Assembly (NCBI GenBank): GCA_016936905.1
Contig: JAFGWZ010000123.1
Coordinates: forward strand, 1 to 44,683
Length of the DNA: 44,683 bases
Direction of reading: 5' to 3'
Source of the DNA: Deltaproteobacteria bacterium
GTDB lineage: Bacteria > Desulfobacterota > Syntrophia > Syntrophales > UBA6807
A program made the translations under genes and the position numbers. Shown piece by piece: positions 7,044 to 44,683 of this stretch; within the stretch, counting starts at the first letter, position 1; every line of letters starts with the position of its first letter. The notes under the pieces were generated by a model that saw nothing but the letters and a program-made list of their open reading frames with translations, was not told where the DNA came from and ran no database searches.

Positions 7044-7073
7044 CGTACGGACCGCCAACATAAGTGAGGTGAC

Positions 7074-7252
7074 AGTTGCTGTTTTTTCAGGATTCAAGGA
7101 ATCAAGGGGTCGAGGATTCAAGTGAAATGCCGAGAGAGTGCATATGGTTGATTTTTTTCATAGCTCATATTGAGTATGTATGAATACGTATCTTGAACCC
7201 TGGAATCCTTGAACCCTCGGATCCTCTTTTGCAACTAAATTGGAGAAGAACC
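7074..7252. mobile_element. Octamer-repeat hairpin element (MITE-like), inverted copy of 40108-40259
   Basis: GGATTCAA GGAATCAA GGGGTCGA GGATTCAA arm, complementary TTGAACCC arm, end GCAACTAAATTGGAGAAGAACC; arms are near-exact reverse complements of the 40108 element. Confidence 0.8.
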
Positions 7253-7275
7253 TAAAATTAAAAATGTATTTAAGG

Positions 7276-25531: not shown

Positions 25532-25542
25532 CATACAAAGCG

Positions 25543-25737
25543 AAGGGTGTAGGGCGTAGGGTGTAGGGGGATTTTGTGAATTGAATAGGTCAAGACATGG
25601 GTAACACGTTTTTCGGTTTCCGTTTTCCGTTTTTCGGTTTTCGGTTTCCGGTTTCCCCATTTTCTATTTTCCAATTCCCGTTTTCCGATATACGTTTTCT
25701 GTTATCCGAATCCCCATTTCCCAATTCCCATTTCCCA
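25543..25737. repeat. Heptamer arrays: (TAGGGNG)x4, then about 18 pyrimidine-rich units
   Basis: AAGGGTG TAGGGCG TAGGGTG TAGGGGG; TTTTCGG TTTCCGT TTTCCGT ... CATTTCC (25607-25737). Confidence 0.85.
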
Positions 25738-25880
25738 AGGATGCGACTGCGGCAACCGTCGATTATACGTAAAGGCGACTTTATTCTTGACACGAACACC
25801 ACTTTTTTATACTCATCATGCGTTTATACTTTATTTCCTCATAAATGTGTTTTCAAATACAATAAAAAGGAGTGTGGAAG

Positions 25881-35966: not shown

Positions 35967-36350
35967 CGTTTCCGGTCCCCGCGGCTGTCCTCATTCATTG
36001 CGACAGGGCATGGTGCCCTGACATTCCTGCAACACGCCGCAGGTAGCGGCATACGGATCAGAAATGAGTCAGGAAGTGTTATGTTTAAAGAGATTCCGTG
36101 ATAACTACTTACTAAAAACATCGCCAGGCAGGATAATTGTGAATTGCTATTACAGGATATCGCCGCCAATCGCAACATATATCCGTGAACATGAACTATT
36201 AAGAGGATGTGTCAGGATAACGCTGACCCCGATCATAACAACCATCAAATATCCGAAACTTGCGGGATTATCTATGCTCGGAGTGTTGCTGATCCTGTCG
36301 TATCAGCGGCGCCGAAAGGTTCAAGGGGACGGGTAACCAACGACGGTATA

Positions 36351-36434
36351 AGTGATTAGTGGTAAGTGGCGAGTGGTTATTAGTGACCACTAATCACTAT
36401 TCACTACCCCCTACACCCTATCCCCTACCCCCTA
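36351..36434. repeat. Heptamer arrays: AGTGRNN arm with complementary NNNCACT arm, then (ANNCCCT)x4
   Basis: AGTGATTAGTGGT (36351-36363) is exactly complementary to ACCACTAATCACT (36386-36398); ACCCCCT ACACCCT ATCCCCT ACCCCCT. Confidence 0.8.
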
Positions 36435-36464
36435 TATTGATGTCTGTAACTCCCTGCAAACATC

Positions 36465-36526
36465 AGATTCCCGCTTTCGCGGGAATGACATATCGGAAAG
36501 TTCATGCCTTTTTCCAAAGTCGTCAA
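36465..36526. repeat. dRS3-like ATTCCC-N8-GGGAAT palindrome plus MITE-like end
   Basis: ATTCCC GCTTTCGC GGGAAT GACA at 36467-36490; CTTTTTCCAAAGTCGTCAA resembles the TIRs ending at 1463 and 6513. Confidence 0.65.
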
Positions 36527-36707
36527 TTTTCTTGATATACCAATTCCCACTTCACATCCCGAATCATCTTTTATTTTCAAATTAAATATGTTAATTTTCT
36601 TTATTGAAAATTGCACATCGTGGTCTTTTTCGGAAGCGTCACGGGGCATGACAGTCTTTTCATAATAAGAGACCACTGACCAGTCACCATAATAAGGAGA
36701 GCCAACT

Positions 36708-39005
36708 ATGACCTCGAAGCGATTCATAACATCTTTTGTCGTATTTATTCTTGCAATAGCCCTTGTGGCCTGCGGAAGCTCCGACTCAAAAAAAGCAAAA
36801 TTCTATGAGAAAGGGATGGAACTCTACGCGAAGGGTGAGTACGGTAAGGCCGCGATAAACTTCGGCAACGCCGCGAAAATTGATCCTCAGTTTGCAGACG
36901 CTTACGCCATGATGGGCCAGTCACTCATGAAGCGAATGCAATTTAAACAGGCTTTCGGCGCCCTGACAAAAGCAGTTGAGCTGAAAGCGGACCTCTGGGA
37001 TGCGCACGTAGCACTGGGTAATATCTACCTCGCCGGCCGTAAAAAAGATATGGCTTGGGAAAAAGTAAATCTGGTCCTGAGTAAAAATCCAAACCACCAC
37101 GAAGCCTTGCTCTTAAAAGCAAATTGCCTTACCTCCGAAGGCAGATACGCCGAGGCACACCAAATTATCACCTCGCTTATCGATAAAGATCCCGACAACA
37201 ACAACCTCTATCTCATACTGGCCACGATTCTGTTACGAGAGAAGAACCTGATAGGCGCGGAGAAAGCCCTGACAACACTTCTTCTAAAAGACGAGACGAA
37301 TATACGGGGACATCTGCTGCTGGCGCAGATACTCGAGCATGAAAACCGCCTTCCCGAGGCCGAAAATGAATTAAAAATACTTGTCAGCCAGCAACCGGAT
37401 AAAGATGAACCGAAGATCCTGCTGGCTCAATTTTACAACCGGACGAATAAAAAAAGTGACGCAGAAAAAATCCTCACCGATATGATCAACGCAAAGCCCC
37501 GGGAAATGCGACTACATCTCAACCTTGCCCGGTTTTATTTCGACAACAAACAATATGAACAGATGGTCGCGACATTACAGACCGTGATCAAGGATTTCCC
37601 CGGTCAATACGCGCCATACGATATACTTGCCCGGTATGAACTGGGGCAAAATAACAAAGACAAGGCTATCGAACTTCTTGAACAATACATGGCAAGCGCG
37701 AAATCAGGACCGGATATACTGAAAGCAAAGACGATGCTGGCGGGAATTCGATTTTACGAACGTAACTTCGACGAATCAATGAAACTGGTGAACGAAGTGC
37801 TGGCAGAAAATCCCAACGACGCAACGGGCCATACACTGAAAGGTGATCTTTTGGTTGCCCAAAAAGACTATGTCGGAGCAATTGCCGAATATCGTACGGT
37901 TATCAAGGATGAGCCGGAAAACACTTCCGTGCTTCTCGGCCTGGCCCGGACGCACCTTCTCAATAAGGAGCCGGAGATCGCCAAAGATACTTATAGAAGC
38001 ATCCTCACCATAAATCCGAACACCGGCCCAGCCCTGCTCGCACTCGGCAATATGGCCCTTGATGAGAAAGATCTTGACACGGCCGACCGATATTTTTCAC
38101 GCCTCCTGACAGTCGCGCCTGAGTCCCCCGTCCCTTATTACAAAAAGGGAATAGTAAAACAGCTTGAACAGAAAGGAGAGGAAGCGACGGTTCTCTTCGA
38201 AAAAGCTCTGGAAGCAAACATTGATTATACGCCGGCGCTCGTTCGGAGTCTTGATCCCCTGTTACAGGAAAAGAATGTGGATGAGGCAATCCAGCGTGTT
38301 GAGCGGCAACTCAAAAAAAGTCCTGAAAATCCTTCTTATTACATAGTTCTTGGAAAACTTTATGCCGTTAAAAAAGACTATGCAACGGCGGAAAAGAACT
38401 TTGAAAAAGCATACGAAATCAATCCGAACAGTCAACAGGCGCTGTTCAATCTTGCCCGGCTAGAACACTTAAAGGGGTCGCCTGACGAAGCCCTGGCAAA
38501 CTATGAGAAAATGAGAAAGCTGAATCCCGATGATACTCGGATTCCCCTTCTTATGGCCATGACGATGGAACAGAAGGGCGAACCGAAAGAGGCGGCGGCG
38601 ATTTATGAAGAAATTCTCGGTAAAACCCCCGATTCTCCCCTGGCGGCAAACAACCTTGCGTTCTACTACGCCGAATATGAACCGACAAAAGAAAATCTTG
38701 AAAAAGCCGAGAAAATAATGGCGCCGCTCCTGGAAAAATTTAAAAATGAACCGGCCATCGTGGATACCGGCGCCTGGGTCTTCTACCGAAAGGGCGATTA
38801 TAAAAAGGCGGCTGATCTCATGACAAATATACAAGATAAAATTAAAAAAGTTCCTGCCATTAACTATCATGTGGGAATGATTCATCTCGGACTGGGAGAT
38901 AAACCCACAGCGCAAGAACATCTCAAACGTGCTGTGGAAAGCGGTGAAAAATTCCCCGGCTACGAAGATGCACAGAAGGCCCTGTCGCGAGTGAGTGGAA
39001 AGTGA
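36708..39005 (+). CDS. TPR-repeat lipoprotein (PrsT-like, EPS/PEP-CTERM-associated)
   Basis: Lipobox LVAC, many TPRs, AANNLA...DT.AWV.YRKG tail; upstream of polysaccharide export genes. Confidence 0.85.
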   Translation: MTSKRFITSFVVFILAIALVACGSSDSKKAKFYEKGMELYAKGEYGKAAINFGNAAKIDPQFADAYAMMGQSLMKRMQFKQAFGALTKAVELKADLWDAHVALGNIYLAGRKKDMAWEKVNLVLSKNPNHHEALLLKANCLTSEGRYAEAHQIITSLIDKDPDNNNLYLILATILLREKNLIGAEKALTTLLLKDETNIRGHLLLAQILEHENRLPEAENELKILVSQQPDKDEPKILLAQFYNRTNKKSDAEKILTDMINAKPREMRLHLNLARFYFDNKQYEQMVATLQTVIKDFPGQYAPYDILARYELGQNNKDKAIELLEQYMASAKSGPDILKAKTMLAGIRFYERNFDESMKLVNEVLAENPNDATGHTLKGDLLVAQKDYVGAIAEYRTVIKDEPENTSVLLGLARTHLLNKEPEIAKDTYRSILTINPNTGPALLALGNMALDEKDLDTADRYFSRLLTVAPESPVPYYKKGIVKQLEQKGEEATVLFEKALEANIDYTPALVRSLDPLLQEKNVDEAIQRVERQLKKSPENPSYYIVLGKLYAVKKDYATAEKNFEKAYEINPNSQQALFNLARLEHLKGSPDEALANYEKMRKLNPDDTRIPLLMAMTMEQKGEPKEAAAIYEEILGKTPDSPLAANNLAFYYAEYEPTKENLEKAEKIMAPLLEKFKNEPAIVDTGAWVFYRKGDYKKAADLMTNIQDKIKKVPAINYHVGMIHLGLGDKPTAQEHLKRAVESGEKFPGYEDAQKALSRVSGK

Positions 39006-39120
39006 CAAGTGGTAACGGGCTGTTGCCCAAACGAAAATTCATTTAAGCGGTCTTCATAGACCCAGTGAAAATGAAATTGGGCAATAACCCCGTGACATAC
39101 CGTTAAAAAAGTCATTACAT

Positions 39121-39244
39121 GAGGCTGTTCAAAAATGTCCAGATGCAAGGCGCCCGAAATCCCGAGTAGTGAGGCGTACTTATGGTACGTCGCAGCGACG
39201 ATGGATGAGGGAAACGCAGCAGATGGGCGTTTTTCAACAGCCTC
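39121..39244. mobile_element. MITE-like element with GAGGCTGTTCAAAAA / TTTTTCAACAGCCTC TIRs
   Basis: 15-nt TIR with one mismatch; 124 bp; no transposase. Confidence 0.8.
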
Positions 39245-39293
39245 GTAAGTAGTGACATGTTAACCGAGTGATGCCGGCGAGGAGTTCGATCTT

Positions 39294-39857
39294 ATGAAAC
39301 GATATAGTTTGTGTGTCCTTTTGGTTATATTGATTATCTGTTCTGGTGGGGCGGTGAATGCCTTCGCCGGGGAAAACAGATATACCATCGGTCCCGGCGA
39401 CGTCATAGAGATATCCGTATGGAAAGATGAAAGCCTGACCAAGCAGATTGTCGTGCCGCCGGACGGCGTCATTGCGTTTCCCCTGATCGGAGATATTGAT
39501 GTGACTGAATTAACGGTACCACAGTTGAGAGAAATCGTATCGAAAAAAGTGAAGGATTTCGTGACCGACGCCACAGCCACGGCTATGCTCATCAGCGCCA
39601 ACAGCATGAATGCCTATGTAGTTGGGAAAGTAAATAAGCCGGGGCAATTCTCCATCACAATGGATACGAATGTCATGCAGATTCTTGGCATGGCGGGTGA
39701 CTTGACCGCGTTCGCGTCGCCGGATGACATTATCATCCTCCGTGAGGAAAAAGGAAAGGCAATCACGATCCCCTTCGATTATGATGAAGTGAAAAAAGGG
39801 GAAAATCTGTCACAAAACATCAAACTTAAACGAGGAGATGTTGTCGTGGTGCCGTAG
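39294..39857 (+). CDS. Polysaccharide biosynthesis/export protein (short Wza/OPX-like: PES + SLBB)
   Basis: YTIGPGDVIEISVW, V.PDG.I.FPLIG, VVGKVNKPG, L.RGDVVVVP. Confidence 0.92.
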   Translation: MKRYSLCVLLVILIICSGGAVNAFAGENRYTIGPGDVIEISVWKDESLTKQIVVPPDGVIAFPLIGDIDVTELTVPQLREIVSKKVKDFVTDATATAMLISANSMNAYVVGKVNKPGQFSITMDTNVMQILGMAGDLTAFASPDDIIILREEKGKAITIPFDYDEVKKGENLSQNIKLKRGDVVVVP

Positions 39858-39875
39858 GCACCAATCATGATCGCT

Positions 39876-39910
39876 GAAACTCGAAATACTAAAAAAGAAA
39901 TACGAAACAA
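39876..39910 (+). repeat. Purine-rich heptamer arm upstream of the four-helix-bundle gene
   Basis: GAAACTC GAAATAC TAAAAAA GAAATAC GAAACAA; complementary to 40273-40307. Confidence 0.75.
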
Positions 39911-39916
39911 TTTCAA

Positions 39917-40108
39917 ATGACCAAAATCCTGAATTCCACACAATATGACCTCGAAGACCGAACTTTCAATTTTGCAAGGGATGTCAGGCGTTTTGTTCAG
40001 AACTTACAAAAAACAATGTCTAACATTGAAGATGGAAAACAACTGACAAGATCGTCAGGTTCAGTCGGTGCAAACTACATCGAGGCGAATGAAGCGTTAA
40101 GTAAGAAG
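39917..40108 (+). pseudogene. Four-helix-bundle (23S rRNA intervening-sequence protein family) gene, 3'-truncated
   Basis: YDLEDRTFNFA...KQLTRSSGSVGANYIEANEALSKK; similarity stops where the 40108 element begins. Confidence 0.85.
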
Positions 40109-40259
40109 GTTCTTCTCCCATTTAGTTGCAAAAGGGGATCCGAGGGTTCAAGGATTCCAGGGTTCAAGTGTTTGTATTTTGATCGGCATTTCACTTGAAT
40201 CCTCGACCCCTTGATTCCTTGAATCCTGGGAAAAACAGCAACTTTTTCGGAGATGACCC
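40108..40259. mobile_element. Octamer-repeat hairpin MITE-like element
   Basis: Ends GGTTCTTCTCCCATTTAGTTGC and (revcomp) GGGTCATCTCCGAAAAAGTTGC; internal inverted octamer arms; second copy at 7074-7252. Confidence 0.8.
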
Positions 40260-40272
40260 AGCAAGAGAGACT

Positions 40273-40307
40273 TTGTTTCGAGTTTCGATATTCGTATTTC
40301 GTATTTA
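40273..40307 (+). repeat. Pyrimidine-rich heptamer arm closing the four-helix-bundle cassette
   Basis: TTGTTTC GAGTTTC GATATTC GTATTTC GTATTTA. Confidence 0.75.
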
Positions 40308-40328
40308 TAGAAAAAGGGGGGTTCACCA

Positions 40329-41483
40329 ATGCGTATCAGATACCTTCAGTGTTTGTTGCTTTTTGCCCTGATGTTTCTTTTCATTGGACCTTCGTATGCT
40401 GCCGAATTCACTGTTAATCCCTCTCTAAGTCTCCGAGGAGAATATAACGATAATATAGATTTCTCCAGAACGAACAAGAGGGACGATTACATCGGAACGA
40501 TCAGTCCCGGCCTGGAGCTCGGCTATGGTACCGATCGTATTAATGTCAAGGCGCGCGCCGGTGTCGATTTTCTCCGCTATCATGAGTATACCGATCAAAA
40601 TACGGAACGGCAGAATTACACCGTAGACGCTTCTTATCGGGCATTCGAGCGGTTCACGGTCAATGCAAACGGATCATATACAAAAGATACCACCCTCGAT
40701 TCCGAACTCCAGGAAACGGGCATCGTGGAGCGACGTTCGGAGAGGGAAAGCTACAGCGCCGGTGGTGGCATTTCCTACCGGATAAGCGAAGTATCTGATT
40801 TATCAATCAATTACACATTCTCAGAAACGGATTATGACCTGGACACATATACCGACTCGGAGGGGCACGGCGTATCCTTATCCTATGGTTACACATTCAA
40901 TAATCGTCTGGACACACTATCGATCAGGCCGTATTGGAATAACACCGATTCAGAAGACGATAAAATCGACACATACGGCCTTTCACTCGGCCTGAACCAT
41001 CAATTTACCCCGACTTTCAGCACAGGTATCAACGCAGGCGCCCGATATACGGAAACAGAGAACAACGCTGGTGTAACAGACGATAACTGGGGGTGGACAG
41101 CCGACGTCAGTGTAACAAAAACCTGGCAAACCGCGTCGGCAAGCCTGAGTTATAGCCATGATTTGAGCTATACCGCCGAGGGAGAAAATGTTGACGTCGA
41201 CAGATTTTCGCTGGACTCGCATATAATGATGACACAAAAGTTTGGTGTTCGGCTTTCCGGATCACTGTATTTTACAAAATCCACCGGCCGTATTACACAG
41301 GACAGAGATGTTCGATACTATCATATCAGTCCCTCTTTCTTCTATAACATCACCCAACATCATTACCTGGAGCTTGCGTACAGTTATGCCAATGAATTCG
41401 ATAAGAAACTCACCGACGATCGTGAACTGGATCGAAACATGGTATGGCTCACGCTGAACTTCAATTTCCCCCGGACGTGGTAG
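40329..41483 (+). CDS. Outer-membrane beta-barrel protein of an EPS export locus
   Basis: Signal peptide, PSLSL..EYNDNI, ISPGL, many Tyr/Ser/Thr-rich strands; lies between OPX and co-polymerase genes. Confidence 0.85.
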   Translation: MRIRYLQCLLLFALMFLFIGPSYAAEFTVNPSLSLRGEYNDNIDFSRTNKRDDYIGTISPGLELGYGTDRINVKARAGVDFLRYHEYTDQNTERQNYTVDASYRAFERFTVNANGSYTKDTTLDSELQETGIVERRSERESYSAGGGISYRISEVSDLSINYTFSETDYDLDTYTDSEGHGVSLSYGYTFNNRLDTLSIRPYWNNTDSEDDKIDTYGLSLGLNHQFTPTFSTGINAGARYTETENNAGVTDDNWGWTADVSVTKTWQTASASLSYSHDLSYTAEGENVDVDRFSLDSHIMMTQKFGVRLSGSLYFTKSTGRITQDRDVRYYHISPSFFYNITQHHYLELAYSYANEFDKKLTDDRELDRNMVWLTLNFNFPRTW

Positions 41484-41522
41484 TTGAAAAAAGTGAAAGA
41501 ACAGTCATAAATTCATTATTTA

Positions 41523-41538
41523 TGGCACCAATATTGCT
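41523..41538 (+). promoter_or_regulatory. Sigma54 (-24/-12) promoter
   Basis: TGGCAC-CAATA-TTGCT, GG-N10-GC spacing, preceded by an AT-rich stretch. Confidence 0.7.
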
Positions 41539-41662
41539 TTACATAAATGGTTCTAGTGTGGCCATAGCGGCCACACTATTGACAGCAAAGGAGAGATTAC
41601 ATCTTTTACAACTAATTCAGAATGGGGACACAGGAAATCGTATACGGGCAAACGGAAACCTC

Positions 41663-41743
41663 ATTCCTTGAGCCTTGAGCCGATTTGACATTGTGTTAAC
41701 AGGCCCTTCGGCCCGTAACACTTGCCACGAACCACTTAACACT
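41663..41743 (+). repeat. Pyrimidine-rich heptamer arms upstream of the co-polymerase gene
   Basis: ATTCCTT GAGCCTT GAGCC; TAACACT TGCCACG AACCACT TAACACT. Confidence 0.65.
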
Positions 41744-41792
41744 TTAGTGTTCGACATACGAAGCATCTCGGAAAGGGAGCCATCAATCAGCC

Positions 41793-43529
41793 ATGATCAA
41801 CGTCCAGTATATTAAAGGTTTAATCAGACGACGTATTGCCGTCTTTCTACTTGTCTCGATACCGGTTTTAATAATTGCAACGGCCATAGCTTTCCTGTTA
41901 CCGCCGATTTACGTCTCAAAATCCACCATTCTTGTCGAATCACAGCAGATTCCAGAAGAGTATGTAAAGTCAACCGTGACGGGATATGTGGAAGAACGGC
42001 TGCAGACCATAACTCAGCGCATTCTCAGCCGGCCGAATCTGATAAAAATCATCAATGAATTCAATTTGTATTCAAAAATGAGAGAGCAATACGCCAGTGA
42101 AATAGTACTCGAAAAAATGCGGAAAGATATTAAACTCGAAACAATCCAGGCCGGCGAAAAAAGAGGAAGAGGCTCAACCACCATCGCGTTTACATTATCA
42201 TACGAAGGGGAAGACCCGGGAACGGTCCAAAAGGTGGCCAACGTCCTGGCCTCTCTGTACCTTGAGGAAAATCTGAAGAAACGGGAAGCTCAGGCAACGA
42301 GAACCACTCAATTCCTTGAACAGGAGTTGAATCACCTCAAAGAACAGATCGATGAATACGGAACAAAAATCACCAAATTCAAACAGGCCCATATAGGTGA
42401 ACTGCCCGAATACAACCAGATAAACCTTCAGGCATTGAATCAACTCCGCCGCGACCACGAACAGAATTCTGTGCAGATTCGATCACTTCAGGAAAGAAAG
42501 GTTTATTTGGAAGGACAGCTCGCCTCACTGAAATCTGTACCTACAATATCAACGACAGATGGCGAAACGGCTGTGACATCAAGTCCTGAAGAACGCCTCT
42601 CCGCGCTACGGCTGCAATTGATCACTCTTCGATCGAGCTTATCTGAGAAACATCCCGATGTCATCAAGCTGGCTCGAGAGATTGCGGAACTTGAAACACA
42701 GGTTGAGGACACAAAAGGTACATCGACAAAAGTCAGGCGAATGAATGAACTGAGACAAAAGCTCTTGACTATGAAAGCGCAACTCGGCACTCAACATCCT
42801 GATGTGATCAAGCTTTCCAAAGAAATCGACGCGCTTTCCGATGAAATTGATCAGTCCCGCAATGGATCATCGAGATCCTCTCTGGTACTGGATAATCCTC
42901 AAGATCCTAATGTACGAATGATGAAGACACAATTAGAGACGATCGATATTGAAATGGGAAATCTTCTGGAAGCACAGAAGAAAATTAAAAATAGCATGGG
43001 ATCATACCAGCAGAAGATTGAAAAGGCGCCACTCATTGAAAAAGAGTACAGCAATTTGTTGGCCGATTACGAAAACGCAAAACTTAAGTACAATGAAATT
43101 ATGAGTAAACTGCTTGAAGCACAAGTGGCAAGAGGAATGGAAGAAACACAGCACGGTGAGCGGTTTACCATCATAGAACCTGCAATCAGACCGGAAGCTC
43201 CGGAAAAACCCGATCGAAAGAAGTTCCTTCTCATGGGATTATTCCTCGCGTGCGGTCTCGGCGGAGGACTTGCATATGTTAGGGAAACGATGGATCACTC
43301 GATCAAGGCAGCATATGAGCTGAATGGAATGGCCCACATACCTCTTTTATCATCGATACCGCTTATTGAAACGGATGAAGAGGTGGCACGTCGAAAGAAG
43401 AAACGACTCATGGCAACGTCGTTATGTGCTGGTGGACTCTGCATAGCCATCATTGCCATCCATTTCTTGTATATGCCCCTTGACATTCTGTGGCTGAAAA
43501 TCCAGAAACACCTGATGATCACCTTTTAA
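41793..43529 (+). CDS. Polysaccharide co-polymerase / chain-length determinant (Wzc/GumC-like, kinase encoded separately)
   Basis: N-terminal TM, LPPIYVSKSTILVE, long coiled coils with HPDV, FTIIEPAIRPEAPEKP before TM2, extra C-terminal TM. Confidence 0.9.
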   Translation: MINVQYIKGLIRRRIAVFLLVSIPVLIIATAIAFLLPPIYVSKSTILVESQQIPEEYVKSTVTGYVEERLQTITQRILSRPNLIKIINEFNLYSKMREQYASEIVLEKMRKDIKLETIQAGEKRGRGSTTIAFTLSYEGEDPGTVQKVANVLASLYLEENLKKREAQATRTTQFLEQELNHLKEQIDEYGTKITKFKQAHIGELPEYNQINLQALNQLRRDHEQNSVQIRSLQERKVYLEGQLASLKSVPTISTTDGETAVTSSPEERLSALRLQLITLRSSLSEKHPDVIKLAREIAELETQVEDTKGTSTKVRRMNELRQKLLTMKAQLGTQHPDVIKLSKEIDALSDEIDQSRNGSSRSSLVLDNPQDPNVRMMKTQLETIDIEMGNLLEAQKKIKNSMGSYQQKIEKAPLIEKEYSNLLADYENAKLKYNEIMSKLLEAQVARGMEETQHGERFTIIEPAIRPEAPEKPDRKKFLLMGLFLACGLGGGLAYVRETMDHSIKAAYELNGMAHIPLLSSIPLIETDEEVARRKKKRLMATSLCAGGLCIAIIAIHFLYMPLDILWLKIQKHLMITF

Positions 43530-43535
43530 GCGTTG

Positions 43536-43711
43536 GAAATCGACGATGGAAAGTGGACAACAGAAAATGGCACTCGGACATTTGAAAAAATACATCGAAT
43601 ACAAAAAAACCGCCACACGGAATTCTGAATGAGCAATTGCACAAACCGGGAACCGAGGGCTGGCATTGGGAGCCTGATTCCTTGTTCCTTTCACCTTTCA
43701 CCTTGAACCTT
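43536..43711 (+). repeat. Purine-rich and pyrimidine-rich heptamer arms between co-polymerase and kinase genes
   Basis: GAAATCG ACGATGG AAAGTGG ACAACAG AAAATGG; GAGCCTG ATTCCTT GTTCCTT TCACCTT TCACCTT GAACCTT. Confidence 0.7.
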
Positions 43712-43728
43712 TGGAGAGGGATAACATA

Positions 43729-44562
43729 ATGAGTAAACTACGAAAAGCACTGGATAAAGCGAAACAATCCCGTCAGCGGGATGATTGGGAACATTCTGAG
43801 ATGGTTCACACAACATCTCCATCTGAACAGACGATCACGATGCCTGAAAGACGGAGAGACGATACAGCTTTCGAAAAGGTTAATCCTTCATATCATCAGA
43901 CAAAAGTGTATCCCATTAATTTTCAAAATCTCGAAGAAAAACGCATTATCTCAATATGCCACGGAAATGTTGTCGCCGATCGAATAAAGATTCTTCGAAC
44001 ACAGGTCCTTCACTCTCTGCGGGAAACCGGCGGCAATACACTCCTCATTGCCAGTTCCAATTCCGGAGAAGGGAGAACGGTAATGGCCATCAATCTCTCT
44101 ATCGCACTCTCACAGCAGATAGACGGCACGGTCCTTCTTGTTGATTCCGACCTCAGAAAGCCAGCCATACACACTCTTCTGGGACTTGATGTCGAGAAAG
44201 GCCTTTCCGATTATCTTCGCGGCAAGGCGGAGATTGCAGAACTCCTTATCAATCCCGGGATTCCCCGACTTGTCATCCTGCCGGGCGGTAAACCACTCAC
44301 CAATTCCTCGGAACTTCTGGGATCCCCGAGAATGAAATTTTTAGTAAAAGAGCTGAAGGAGCGTTATGCAGACCGAATCATTGTTTTCGACAGCTCGCCT
44401 CTTCTCACAAGTGCCGACTCCCTGGTTCTTTCACGCTTTATTGACGGTATTCTGATTGTCGTCGAGGCGGAGAAGACGAGCAAGGAAGACCTGAAAAACA
44501 CGATGGAACTGTTGAAGGAACGTCCCGTTGTGGGAACCGTTTTTAACAAAGCACGAGGGTAA
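43729..44562 (+). CDS. CpsD/CapB-family BY-kinase homologue (degenerate Walker A)
   Basis: MSKLRKALDKA N-terminus, ILRTQV, SSNSGEGRT, LLVDSDLRKP, IVFDSSP. Confidence 0.9.
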   Translation: MSKLRKALDKAKQSRQRDDWEHSEMVHTTSPSEQTITMPERRRDDTAFEKVNPSYHQTKVYPINFQNLEEKRIISICHGNVVADRIKILRTQVLHSLRETGGNTLLIASSNSGEGRTVMAINLSIALSQQIDGTVLLVDSDLRKPAIHTLLGLDVEKGLSDYLRGKAEIAELLINPGIPRLVILPGGKPLTNSSELLGSPRMKFLVKELKERYADRIIVFDSSPLLTSADSLVLSRFIDGILIVVEAEKTSKEDLKNTMELLKERPVVGTVFNKARG

Positions 44563-44575
44563 ACGAACATCCTCC

Positions 44576-44683
44576 GGGAACAAGGGTTCAAGGGGTCGAG
44601 GGTTCAAGGGGGCAAGGATGCAAGGAGTCAAGGGGTCGAGGATCCAAGGGTTCTAGGGGTCAAGGATTCAAGGGGGCAAGGAT
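44576..44683 (+). repeat. Octamer tandem array GGNNNCAA (13 full units, runs off the window)
   Basis: GGGAACAA GGGTTCAA GGGGTCGA GGGTTCAA GGGGGCAA GGATGCAA GGAGTCAA ... Confidence 0.9.

What the first reader, a model, noticed from the sequence alone, without database searches (positions are those of the whole stretch)
36351..44683. Polarised heptamer/octamer arms in nearly every spacer of the EPS locus, linked to a four-helix-bundle (IVP-like) gene: candidate cassette or RNA-processing system
Seen: most spacers carry degenerate 7-8 nt tandem arrays of several distinct families. Purine-rich arrays start at or just after stop codons (38994, 39876, 43536, 44576; also 25543). Pyrimidine-rich arrays lie upstream of the next start (36386-36434, 40273, 41663-41743, 43670; also 25607). 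One matched pair encloses a four-helix-bundle gene. Known: this protein family is named from 23S rRNA intervening sequences, which are excised from long stems, and is structurally related to the DGR accessory protein Avd. Inference: arm-ORF-arm units are intergenic cassettes whose arms pair in the transcript. They could be processed or spliced, bind the four-helix-bundle protein, or act as recombination sites that shuffle operon genes. Spacers holding two unrelated arm families would be scars of such events.
Basis: partly seen in the sequence, partly recalled or inferred. Interest (0 to 1): 0.85.

Follow-up and report, generated by a model that had tools for sequence, protein, structure and literature searches.

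The report
Heptamer-armed four-helix-bundle gene cassettes
The short 7-base repeat arrays between these polysaccharide genes are real and ordered, and one pair forms the matching arms of a small hairpin-bounded gene cassette, resembling the intervening sequences of ribosomal RNA, that recurs across several bacterial phyla.

Summary
Five of six spacers in 36351-44683 show significant 7- or 8-base periodicity. Genome-wide, period-7 arrays are about five times commoner than in a shuffle (244 vs 51 rows) and 204 of 252 are intergenic. Where a spacer holds both kinds, purine-rich arrays precede pyrimidine-rich ones 23:2. That polarity is already published for Xanthomonas and Nostoc heptamer repeats, with no function assigned (PMC4692102).

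The link to the four-helix-bundle (PF05635/TIGR02436) gene is one-directional. Only 3 such genes sit among about 250 arrays here. But these genes are almost always bracketed by complementary tandem-heptamer arms: 47 of 59 Desulfobacterota loci against 4 of 99 neighbouring ORFs, and 8 of 10 cyanobacterial or Bacteroidota plasmid loci. Arm sequences differ between loci yet stay complementary, and they travel with the gene. The cassette is present or absent at the same EPS spacer among congeners.

The window's copy is broken by a nested octamer-armed mini-cassette.

Best reading: these are intervening-sequence-like cassettes outside rRNA, whose arms form an RNA stem, probably cut by RNase III. 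This is inferred by analogy, not shown. Operon shuffling is not supported. The origin of the solo arrays is unresolved.

The parts
36349..36377 (.). Purine-rich heptamer array directly after the stop of ORF 36064-36336. It is the left arm of an 'empty' pair.
   Evidence: TRF period 7, score 30. Purine 0.66. Complementary to the first units of 36388-36434 with an 11-nt gap, inverted score 22. Sequence read.
36388..36434 (.). Pyrimidine-rich heptamer arrays of two unit families. The second is C-rich and is a G-quadruplex-type motif on the minus strand.
   Evidence: TRF rows 36388-36406 and 36404-36434. Purine 0.26, GC skew -1.0. Best lag-7 window 0.79, P=0.000.
38990..39025 (+). Weak purine-rich period-7 stretch overlapping the stop codon of the TPR gene (36708-39005).
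   Evidence: Lag-7 identity 0.52 against 0.26-0.30 at lags 6, 8 and 9; purine 0.69. Below TRF score 30.
39872..39916 (+). R arm (degenerate heptamers) of the four-helix-bundle cassette. It fills the gap between the Poly_export stop and the cassette start codon.
   Evidence: Lag-7 identity 0.50, purine 0.64. Aligns with the left arm of the intact cassette in L004. Pairs with 40268-40306 in the MFE and centroid folds.
39917..40198 (+). Truncated four-helix-bundle (PF05635/TIGR02436) gene. Homology stops near 40114, and the rest of the open frame reads into the inserted element.
   Evidence: Pfam PF05635 23.6 bits, below the cut-off of 33.8, covering profile 7-58 of 106. TIGR02436 32 bits, above the cut-off of 24. 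62% identity over 81 aligned residues to the intact gene of L004. Alignment.
40113..40245 (-). Nested octamer-armed mini-cassette (hairpin) that replaces the 3' half of the gene. Its arms are 40140-40175 and 40194-40227.
   Evidence: 72% identical over 181 aligned columns, in reverse orientation, to window 7074-7253. It carries the junction motif that includes the start codon of intact octamer-armed four-helix-bundle genes in other genomes (L046, L051, L063, L122). It forms the inner stem in the fold.
40268..40306 (+). Y arm of the cassette, complementary to 39872-39916. It ends about 20 nt before the beta-barrel gene start (40329).
   Evidence: TRF 40291-40306, period 7. Lag-7 identity 0.56. 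The same array, 7.3 copies, stands before the orthologous gene in L002 and L004.
41655..41745 (+). Pyrimidine-leaning degenerate heptamers before the Wzz-like gene (41793).
   Evidence: TRF 41666-41681. Spacer lag-7 P=0.000.
43530..43575 (+). Weak purine-rich period-7 stretch just after the Wzz-like stop.
   Evidence: Lag-7 identity 0.44 against 0.16-0.33 at neighbouring lags; purine 0.67.
43665..43715 (+). Pyrimidine-rich heptamer array abutting the ribosome-binding site of the P-loop gene.
   Evidence: TRF 43687-43712, score 38. Lag-7 identity 0.59, purine 0.33.
44581..44683 (+). G-rich octamer array (12.6 copies) that runs off the contig end. It is probably the R arm of another octamer-family cassette.
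   Evidence: TRF period 8/16/24, scores 83-111. Matches the arms at C274:2206-2325. Public contigs also stop inside it.
25540..25738 (+). Spacer outside the finding with one G-rich R array followed by several unrelated Y arrays.
   Evidence: TRF rows. Purine 0.76 then 0.24. Lag-7 window 0.89, P=0.000.
7062..7250 (+). Second copy of the octamer-armed mini-cassette. Both arms and the start-codon junction are kept, but no gene.

Best explanation
The window belongs to a Syntrophales genome whose spacers are full of tandem heptamer arrays. These arrays are of the kind already described, unexplained, in Xanthomonas, Nostoc and Geobacter. On either strand, purine-rich arrays come first and pyrimidine-rich arrays second.

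One pair, 39872-39916 and 40268-40306, forms the two arms of a cassette. The cassette is: R arm, a four-helix-bundle (PF05635/TIGR02436) ORF whose start abuts the arm, then the complementary Y arm starting at the stop codon. This is the general architecture of these genes. It matches the 23S rRNA intervening sequence (IVS), so these are IVS-like cassettes sitting in operon spacers.

Proposed mechanism:
1. The cassette is transcribed by read-through from the host operon.
2. The two arms pair into a long stem that encloses the ORF and its ribosome-binding region.
3. RNase III cuts the stem, as it does for rRNA IVSs. This releases the small mRNA and separates the flanking host messages.
4. Tandem repetition of the arms lets the stem form in several registers and survive gain or loss of units.

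The cassette, arms included, moves between sites and genomes by an unknown route. It then decays by internal deletion or nested insertion, as in this window. At least some gene-less arm pairs are such remains.

Shown here: the architecture, its specificity, arm co-variation, presence/absence between relatives and the decay series.

Inferred: RNA pairing in vivo, RNase III cleavage, and a relic origin for solo arrays.
For: Architecture and specificity:
- Flank complementarity exceeds the 95th percentile of 3422 mismatched pairs in 47 of 59 PF05635 loci from Desulfobacterota genomes. Arrays stand on both flanks in 47 of 59, mostly of period 7 or 14.
- Other ORFs in the same loci reach this in 4 of 99 cases (Fisher P=4e-24). 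All called genes of this genome reach it in 10 of 1815 cases.
- 8 of 10 fetched plasmid loci of Nostoc, Anabaena, Geminocystis, Stanieria and Riemerella show it too.
- The R arm is upstream in 39 of 47 loci.

Arms differ between loci but match within each locus. Protein-similar pairs in unrelated flanks share arm families in 11 of 77 cases, against 8 of 1626 for dissimilar proteins.

The gene is co-oriented with both neighbours in 37 loci and antisense between co-oriented neighbours in 3.

Folds put the arms in the outer stem. L004:640-1140 gives -112.2 kcal/mol, z -3.76. Window 39860-40325 gives -131.7 kcal/mol, z -3.79. No shuffle out of 100 folds as well in either case.

Sense-strand RNA duplexes are more stable than antisense ones in 42 of 57 loci. 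G.U-type mismatches outnumber A.C-type 69 to 45.

At the Poly_export/beta-barrel spacer the cassette is present in G000, in L004 and G028 (one sequence by eye), and in G047. It is absent in G248 and L001 (one sequence by eye; G248 is of the same genus), G064, G249, L013 and L005.

A decay series exists for the octamer family.

Published anchor: the C. burnetii IVS has 2-3 tandem heptamers before the S23p start and a 28-bp terminal stem, and RNase III cuts within that stem (PMC4990558, passages).

RNase III (PF14622) is found in 19 of 21 relatives, including both genomes of the same genus.
Against: - No RNA evidence exists. No run on record as RNA holds the stretch, and the one metatranscriptome laid gave only scraps on dispersed repeats.
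- RNase III was not found in this genome itself with PF14622 or PF00636. The genome is 87% complete.
- 12 of 59 loci lack complementary arms. One locus (L053) has the order reversed, and L061 and a Pseudanabaena plasmid have direct rather than inverted arrays.
- Most arrays in this genome are solo or paired with an unrelated family. Only 11 of 143 neighbouring array pairs are complementary, and a stem model does not explain the rest.
- Array density did not track the presence of four-helix-bundle genes in sampled genomes. G079 has 8 such genes but 0.8 strong arrays per 100 kb, although long contigs under-sample repeats.
- The G.U excess is modest (P=0.03) and could come from transcription-linked C-to-T bias.
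- The 59 loci include orthologous sets, so they are not independent.
Confidence: 0.55

Rival explanations
1. The arrays are autonomous simple-sequence repeats. Polymerase slippage makes them, and they are kept as regulatory or structural signals: G-quadruplex or i-motif, binding sites for an unidentified global regulator, or unstructured translation leaders. Four-helix-bundle cassettes are merely one tenant of spacers that already carry them.
For: The same polarity and convergent pairs are reported for about 180 GGGAATC repeats per Xanthomonas genome, with G-quadruplexes formed in vitro (PMC4692102, passages). Paired tandem 7-9 nt sites in G. metallireducens were read as global-regulator sites (PMC2700814, passages). 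A preprint reports effects of heptamer repeats on recF and recO expression in Nostoc and postulates an unknown binding partner (10.1101/2022.06.06.494920, passages). Here about 250 arrays stand against 3 four-helix-bundle genes. 25540-25568 and 44581-44683 are quadruplex-type motifs.
Against: Many unit families here have no G runs. Arms at the filled EPS site differ from the arrays at empty orthologous sites, so the arms came with the cassette and not from the target. Arms co-travel with the gene into unrelated contexts. Orthologous spacers change unit family freely, which argues against sequence-specific sites.
Confidence: 0.3
2. The arms act at the DNA level, as terminal inverted repeats or cruciform or hairpin sites used by a recombinase or transposase. 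That enzyme moves the cassette in the manner of a MITE or an integron cassette. RNA pairing would then be incidental.
For: Presence/absence is patchy within three genera at one site. The same protein subfamily with the same arms appears in unrelated contexts. The octamer family has gene-less mini copies (two in the window, two on C274) and one nested insertion. In G. metallireducens, IS elements sit at a fixed distance from comparable paired sites (PMC2700814).
Against: No transposase or integrase is consistently adjacent in the loci read. I saw no target-site duplication or conserved outer boundary. The cassette is strongly co-oriented with host genes (37:3) and the sense-strand duplex is favoured, both of which point to the transcript.
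Confidence: 0.25
3. The four-helix-bundle protein binds its own repeated arms, as RNA or DNA, for autoregulation or for mobility. This would parallel Avd, which binds the reverse transcriptase and RNA in diversity-generating retroelements. Solo arrays would be further binding sites.
For: PF05635 is described as resembling Avd (PMC10053308, passage). Arm family correlates with protein subfamily. An unidentified heptamer-binding partner is postulated in Nostoc.
Against: The correlation is what co-inheritance alone would give. The gene is often broken while the arms persist (window; C274). [quoted passage not shown] No reverse transcriptase (PF00078) was found in this 87%-complete genome.
Confidence: 0.2
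4. The arms are recombination sites that shuffle whole operon genes, and mixed-family spacers are the scars of such events.
For: Some spacers hold unrelated R and Y families (25540-25738). A few non-four-helix-bundle genes have complementary flanks, such as C18:7183-7674.
Against: Gene order of the EPS locus is conserved from Syntrophales to Geobacteraceae. Only 10 of 1815 genes have complementary flanks. In the C18 case the order is Y-gene-R, which is simply two neighbouring spacers obeying the general rule.
Confidence: 0.03

Closest known systems
23S rRNA intervening sequences carrying an S23p/PF05635 ORF (Coxiella burnetii IVS, PMC4990558, passages read; Leptospira and Salmonella IVSs as cited in that paper)
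   Same: A small PF05635-family ORF lies inside terminal inverted repeats that form a long stem. Tandem heptamers, variable in copy number, stand directly before the start codon. The ORF is often decaying while the RNA element persists.
   Different: The location is an operon spacer of a polysaccharide locus (and many other operons), not a 23S rRNA helix. The arms are long tandem arrays on both sides, with different units at each locus. RNase III cleavage is shown for the rRNA element only.
Polarised intergenic heptameric repeats of Xanthomonas (GGGAATC) and Nostoc (GGGGA(T/C)T), PMC4692102 (passages read); cyanobacterial STRR repeats (recalled, not read)
   Same: The unit is 7 nt and 89-93% are intergenic. 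The G-rich strand is the coding strand just after stops and the non-coding strand just before starts. Convergent plus/minus pairs occur. Copy number varies between relatives at conserved positions. The function is unknown.
   Different: Those reports treat one unit family per genome and do not mention four-helix-bundle genes in the passages I read. Here there are many unit families per genome and a demonstrated cassette.
Paired tandem 7-9 nt 'global regulator binding sites' of Geobacter metallireducens (PMC2700814, passages read)
   Same: The phylum is the same. Pairs of tandem octa- or heptanucleotide arrays stand on opposite strands at variable distance, drawn with the pyrimidine-rich strand reading outward, which is the same R-then-Y order.
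   Different: They were interpreted as IHF/HU-type protein sites. The alignments are in supplementary files I could not see, so I do not know whether any pair encloses a four-helix-bundle gene.
TAACTGA direct repeats of Beggiatoaceae, Cyanobacteria and Bacteroidetes (PMC4679880, abstract read)
   Same: They are intergenic heptamer arrays just upstream of start codons, with a taxon range overlapping that of multi-copy PF05635 genes.
   Different: There is a single conserved unit, almost always direct (169 direct sets, one indirect). A translational role is proposed, and no cassette.
Avd accessory protein of diversity-generating retroelements
   Same: The four-helix-bundle fold family is shared (PMC10053308, passage). 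The closest solved relative of the intact L004 protein is PDB 2rld, E 9.4e-12.
   Different: No reverse transcriptase, template repeat or variable repeat is associated. PF00078 was not found in this genome.

Membership tests
IVS-type element (PF05635 ORF inside an RNase III-processed stem) | ORF of the PF05635/TIGR02436 four-helix-bundle family | tested here: met
   The window fragment scores 32 bits on TIGR02436 (cut-off 24) and 23.6 bits on PF05635 (below the cut-off of 33.8). The intact orthologue in L004 scores 66.5 bits on TIGR02436. C34 scores 119.7 bits on PF05635.
IVS-type element (PF05635 ORF inside an RNase III-processed stem) | Terminal inverted repeats that pair into a long stem enclosing the ORF | tested here: met
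   In the MFE and centroid folds the arms pair as the outer stem, z -3.76 and -3.79. Complementarity is found in 47 of 59 loci against 4 of 99 controls.
IVS-type element (PF05635 ORF inside an RNase III-processed stem) | Tandem heptamers immediately upstream of the start codon | tested here: met
   Compare the GACAGAT repeats in PMC4990558.
IVS-type element (PF05635 ORF inside an RNase III-processed stem) | Insertion in a helix of 23S (or 16S) rRNA | tested here: not met
   The cassette lies between the Poly_export and beta-barrel genes. There is no Rfam hit in the window.
IVS-type element (PF05635 ORF inside an RNase III-processed stem) | Excision from the transcript by RNase III | not testable with these tools
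   No RNA holder was found. The RNase III gene (rnc) was not found in G000 (87% complete) but is present in 19 of 21 relatives.
Polarised intergenic heptameric SSRs (Xanthomonas/Nostoc type) | Tandem 7-nt units over-represented and mostly intergenic | tested here: met
   244 rows against 51 in the shuffle; 204 of 252 arrays intergenic.
Polarised intergenic heptameric SSRs (Xanthomonas/Nostoc type) | The purine/G-rich strand is the coding strand after stops and the non-coding strand before starts, with convergent pairs | tested here: met
   R arrays lie nearer the left gene 60:21 and Y arrays nearer the right gene 68:35. The order is RY 23, YR 2.
Polarised intergenic heptameric SSRs (Xanthomonas/Nostoc type) | G-quadruplex-forming unit (runs of three or more G) | tested here: inconclusive
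   This holds for some arrays (25540-25568, 44581-44683, minus strand of 36404-34). It does not hold for the cassette arms or several abundant families.
Diversity-generating retroelement (Avd plus RT) | Adjacent reverse transcriptase with template and variable repeats | tested here: not met
   PF00078 gave no match in G000. None was seen next to the cassettes read. Template and variable repeats were not searched.
MITE (for the octamer-armed mini copies) | Several gene-less copies with terminal inverted repeats and target-site duplications | tested here: inconclusive
   There are four gene-less or remnant copies in G000, at 7062-7250, 40113-40245 and two on C274. Inverted arms are present. I recognised no target-site duplication.

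The most novel reading that the evidence does not exclude
The intergenic heptamer repeats known for decades in cyanobacteria (STRR-type), Xanthomonas, Geobacter and others would be largely the arms and decayed remains of one widespread, unrecognised class of mobile hairpin cassettes encoding Avd-like four-helix-bundle proteins. The 23S rRNA intervening sequence would be only the special case that landed in rRNA. The protein would recognise or handle its own repeated arms. The purine-then-pyrimidine polarity of all these repeats would be inherited from the cassette, whose purine-rich arm doubles as its ribosome-binding leader.
Probability: 0.3. Interest if true: 0.85.

Novelty: new variant of a known kind. 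Interest (0 to 1): 0.72.

Why it matters
Two old puzzles have been treated separately. One is what the polarised intergenic heptamer repeats of many bacteria are. The other is what the intervening-sequence protein family (PF05635/TIGR02436) does, given that it is multi-copy in many genomes.

The finding, once generalised, ties them together. The gene is almost always enclosed by complementary heptamer arrays, in at least three phyla. The arrays share the polarity of the solo repeats.

That makes both questions testable with ordinary tools: RNase III mapping, arm-binding assays and a census of complete genomes.

It also has practical uses:
- It flags a recurrent cause of contig breaks in metagenome bins.
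- It flags mis-annotated 'hypothetical' spacers.
- It identifies elements that can sit inside operons, including EPS, CRISPR-cas and ribonucleotide reductase operons.

In four full-text searches I found no paper linking PF05635 genes outside rRNA to heptamer arms. Subscription journals and supplementary files were not searchable.

Tried and rejected
- Rfam, at gathering thresholds over the whole window and at E<=1 over 36000-44683, gave no match.

- Sequencing runs: no RNA holder is listed. The metatranscriptome of the same study held next to none of the sampled words. When laid, it gave only short pieces on dispersed repeats and one 195-nt piece in the TPR gene. DNA contigs of two samples break at 39135-39181, at 40165/40199 and at 44610. 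A single-contig joint from 39927 to 40272 has only 23 letters on its shorter side, so I disregard it.

- Genome-level association between array density and four-helix-bundle genes is inconclusive. I sampled 7 genomes with and 7 without the gene (40-60 kb each), then family-level samples. Period-21 hits in coding DNA, AT- or GC-rich artefacts, and the bias of long contigs against repeats all confound it.

- The G.U versus A.C mismatch test is only weakly informative.

- I suspected by eye that the last codons of the broken gene survive after the octamer insert. The alignment did not confirm this, so I dropped it.

- My gene caller is crude: codon log-odds with greedy selection, 2274 genes. It missed short genes, including the C34 four-helix-bundle gene.

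- The period-8 arrays are one cassette family, not a genome-wide class.

- The operon-shuffling idea is rejected on synteny.

- Supplementary files of PMC4692102 (repeat and neighbour-gene lists) and PMC2700814 (alignments of paired sites) could bear directly on whether those published pairs enclose four-helix-bundle genes. They were closed.

Full report
WHAT THE WINDOW IS.
The window is the whole of contig C6 of a 2.52-Mb, 301-contig genome bin that is 87% complete. Relatives of its Wzz-like protein carry record titles naming Syntrophales/Syntrophaceae, and more distantly Geobacteraceae.

The stretch 36.7-44.6 kb encodes, all on the + strand:
- a TPR protein (36708-39005);
- a Poly_export/SLBB protein (39294-39857);
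- a fragment of a four-helix-bundle gene (39917-40198);
- a BBP2_2-type beta-barrel (40329-41483);
- a Wzz-like protein (41793-43529);
- a P-loop protein (43711-44562).

From memory this looks like the PEP-CTERM-type EPS export set. I did not test that.

THE OBSERVATION.
Tandem Repeats Finder and a lag-identity test confirm period-7 arrays in the spacers 36337-36707, 39858-40328, 41484-41792 and 43530-43710. They confirm a period-8 array at 44581-44683. The spacer 39006-39293 is not periodic beyond its first 30 nt and is occupied by other dispersed repeats.

The phenomenon is genome-wide:
- Period 7 and its multiples are strongly over-represented against a dinucleotide shuffle: 244 vs 51, 88 vs 7, 45 vs 1 and 12 vs 1 rows. 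Period 8 is not (73 vs 55).
- 204 of 252 merged arrays lie in the 15% of the genome outside my gene calls.

THE POLARITY.
Purine-rich arrays lie nearer the gene on the left (60 vs 21). Pyrimidine-rich arrays lie nearer the gene on the right (68 vs 35). Where a spacer has both, the order is R then Y in 23 cases and Y then R in 2.

This rule is unchanged by reverse complementation. So 'purine-rich after stops, pyrimidine-rich before starts' and 'R left, Y right' are the same statement for all four gene arrangements. There is no preference of either type for the transcribed strand: R 27, Y 30 in co-directional + spacers.

Exactly this behaviour was published for GGGAATC repeats in Xanthomonas and GGGGA(T/C)T repeats in Nostoc (PMC4692102, passages):
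- 89-93% are intergenic.
- The G-rich strand is the coding strand within 0-50 bp after stops.
- It is the non-coding strand within 0-50 bp before starts.
- There are 70-75 convergent plus/minus pairs per genome.
- The function was left open.

Paired tandem 7-9-nt sites on opposite strands were also catalogued in Geobacter metallireducens as putative global-regulator sites (PMC2700814, passages). The arrays themselves are therefore a new instance of a known, unexplained kind.

THE CASSETTE IN THE WINDOW.
Between the Poly_export stop and the beta-barrel start lie three features. First comes a purine-rich degenerate heptamer arm (39872-39916). Then comes the four-helix-bundle ORF. Last is the complementary pyrimidine-rich arm (40268-40306).

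In the relative L004 the same arms enclose an intact 121-codon gene: TIGR02436 66.5 bits, nearest solved structure 2rld.

In the window, homology to that gene stops near 40114. The 3' half is replaced by a 133-nt hairpin made of octamer arrays (40113-40245). This hairpin is a reverse-oriented copy of window 7062-7250. It carries the junction that, in other genomes, holds the start codon of intact octamer-armed four-helix-bundle genes. The window therefore holds a cassette broken by a nested, gene-less mini-cassette of a second family.

The octamer array that ends the contig (44581-44683) is of this second family.

GENERALISATION.
This genome has only three PF05635 hits, so most arrays have no such gene. 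The converse is striking.

I took the best-scoring PF05635 locus from each of 58 Desulfobacterota genomes, plus this genome's own C34 copy. The searches covered 101 genomes of the order, of which 45 had the gene, and 151 of the phylum, of which 82 had it. Results:
- The 120 nt upstream and the reverse complement of the 120 nt downstream align better than the 95th percentile of 3422 mismatched pairs in 47 of 59 loci.
- 47 of 59 have a tandem array on both flanks, mostly of period 7 or 14, with a few of 8, 9 or 15.
- Other ORFs in the same loci reach the threshold in 4 of 99 cases. All called genes of this genome reach it in 10 of 1815.

The loci include several orthologous sets, so the counts overstate independence.

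Ten of 21 plasmid records with a tblastn match were fetched. Eight show the same arrangement, from Nostoc, Anabaena, Geminocystis, Stanieria and Riemerella. Calothrix does not. Pseudanabaena has direct arrays.

Units differ from locus to locus, even within one genome, yet the two arms of each locus match.

Related proteins in unrelated genomic contexts share arm families in 11 of 77 pairs, against 8 of 1626 for unrelated proteins. So the arms travel with the gene.

The gene is co-oriented with both neighbours in 37 loci and antisense between co-oriented neighbours in 3. The median gap to the upstream ORF is 49 nt, meaning the arm fills it.

PRESENCE AND ABSENCE.
At the Poly_export/beta-barrel spacer the cassette is present in this genome, in L004 and G028 (which look like one sequence), and in G047.

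It is absent in these relatives:
- G248 and L001, which look like one sequence; G248 is of the same genus. The spacer holds other degenerate R-then-Y heptamers.
- G064, G249 and L013, which have a short pyrimidine-rich array of another family.
- L005.

Both states thus occur within each of three genera. The arms at the filled site are not the arrays of the empty site.

Gene order of the locus is otherwise conserved out to Geobacteraceae. This speaks against operon shuffling.

HOW IT PROBABLY WORKS.
Minimum-free-energy and centroid folds of the intact L004 unit and of the window's unit both place the arms in a long outer stem around the ORF. The z-scores are -3.76 and -3.79, and no shuffle out of 100 folds as well.

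Sense-strand arm duplexes are more stable than antisense ones in 42 of 57 loci. G.U-type mismatches exceed A.C-type 69 to 45. This is suggestive but explicable by mutation bias.

The closest experimental model is the rRNA intervening sequence. In C. burnetii the S23p ORF is preceded by two or three tandem GACAGAT units that vary between strains. The termini form a 28-bp stem, and RNase III cuts in the middle of it (PMC4990558, passages).

RNase III is encoded in 19 of 21 relatives. It was not found in this incomplete bin.

I therefore propose the following, by analogy:
- The arms form an RNase III substrate in the operon transcript.
- The purine-rich arm doubles as the ribosome-binding leader of the small ORF. 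This would also explain why the polarity is R then Y.
- Tandem repetition makes the stem tolerant of slippage.

None of the RNA steps is shown. No RNA data could be found.

WHAT REMAINS OPEN.
Only 11 of 143 neighbouring array pairs in this genome are complementary. Many spacers combine unrelated families, as at 25540-25738.

The octamer family gives a clear decay series from full gene to internally deleted gene to arms only. Some solo arrays are therefore relics.

I could not show this for the heptamer families. Sampling of array density in genomes with and without the gene was inconclusive.

The rival view is that arrays are autonomous repeats with regulatory or structural roles and that cassettes are just tenants. 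For the solo arrays it remains viable.

How cassettes move is unknown. No recombinase is consistently adjacent, and I saw no target duplications.

NOVELTY.
Already known:
- heptamer repeats and their polarity;
- the rRNA IVS with its S23p ORF, stem and heptamers;
- the Avd resemblance of the protein.

I did not find in print that PF05635 genes outside rRNA are systematically enclosed by complementary tandem-heptamer arms across phyla. That link would tie the two literatures together. They cover open-access full text and bioRxiv only, and supplements were closed. I rate it a new variant of a known kind.

Noticed in passing
window 39100-39245: A roughly 145-nt hairpin-forming dispersed repeat with more than 60 BLAST matches across the genome's contigs. 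One copy lies directly beside the array-less four-helix-bundle gene on C274 (5-80). No Rfam match.
   Followed up: partly
window 39008-39090: Two further short dispersed repeat modules (query positions about 5-50 and 45-83 of the BLAST query), each with many copies on other contigs.
   Followed up: no
window 44581-44683, 39135-39181 and 40165-40199: The contig ends inside an octamer array. Public contigs of two samples break at the dispersed repeat, at the octamer hairpin and at 44610. These repeats are a cause of assembly fragmentation in this bin.
   Followed up: partly
window 36455-36485: A short inverted repeat of the form 'attcccgc...gcgggaat'. By eye it also appears downstream of cassettes in L037 and L119, so it may be another REP-like family.
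   Followed up: no
L136 (Anabaena sp. 90 plasmid), L139 (Pseudanabaena plasmid), L137 (Nostoc edaphicum plasmid): Four-helix-bundle cassettes sit between cas6 and cas4 in two cyanobacterial CRISPR-cas operons. Another sits antisense between the two ribonucleotide reductase subunit genes.
   Followed up: no
L053, L061, L139: These are exceptions to the rule. L053 has the pyrimidine-rich array upstream and the purine-rich one downstream. L061 and the Pseudanabaena locus have arrays in direct rather than inverted orientation.
   Followed up: no
L009 4515-4617 and L011 19059-19133 (Geobacteraceae EPS loci): Near-perfect heptamer arrays (14.7 copies, score 206; 10.7 copies, score 150) stand in the orthologous EPS loci of distant relatives.
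   Followed up: no
G000 C18:7073-7833: A 164-codon gene (Nudix-box-like by eye, not searched) is flanked by complementary arrays in the order Y-gene-R. This is the opposite of the cassette order and fits two adjacent spacers sharing one unit family.
   Followed up: partly
L094-L096 (genome G121, GC 0.70): 12 strong heptamer arrays in 60 kb, mostly of one GC-rich unit family and its complement. They recall the GGACCGG-type heptanucleotide elements reported in G. metallireducens.
   Followed up: no
G079:C79 (L121), G232:C1, G160:C6, G146:C6, G150:C10, G173:C75: Two four-helix-bundle genes often lie within a few kb of each other, or directly adjacent. This could generate mixed-family arm pairs by deletion.
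   Followed up: no
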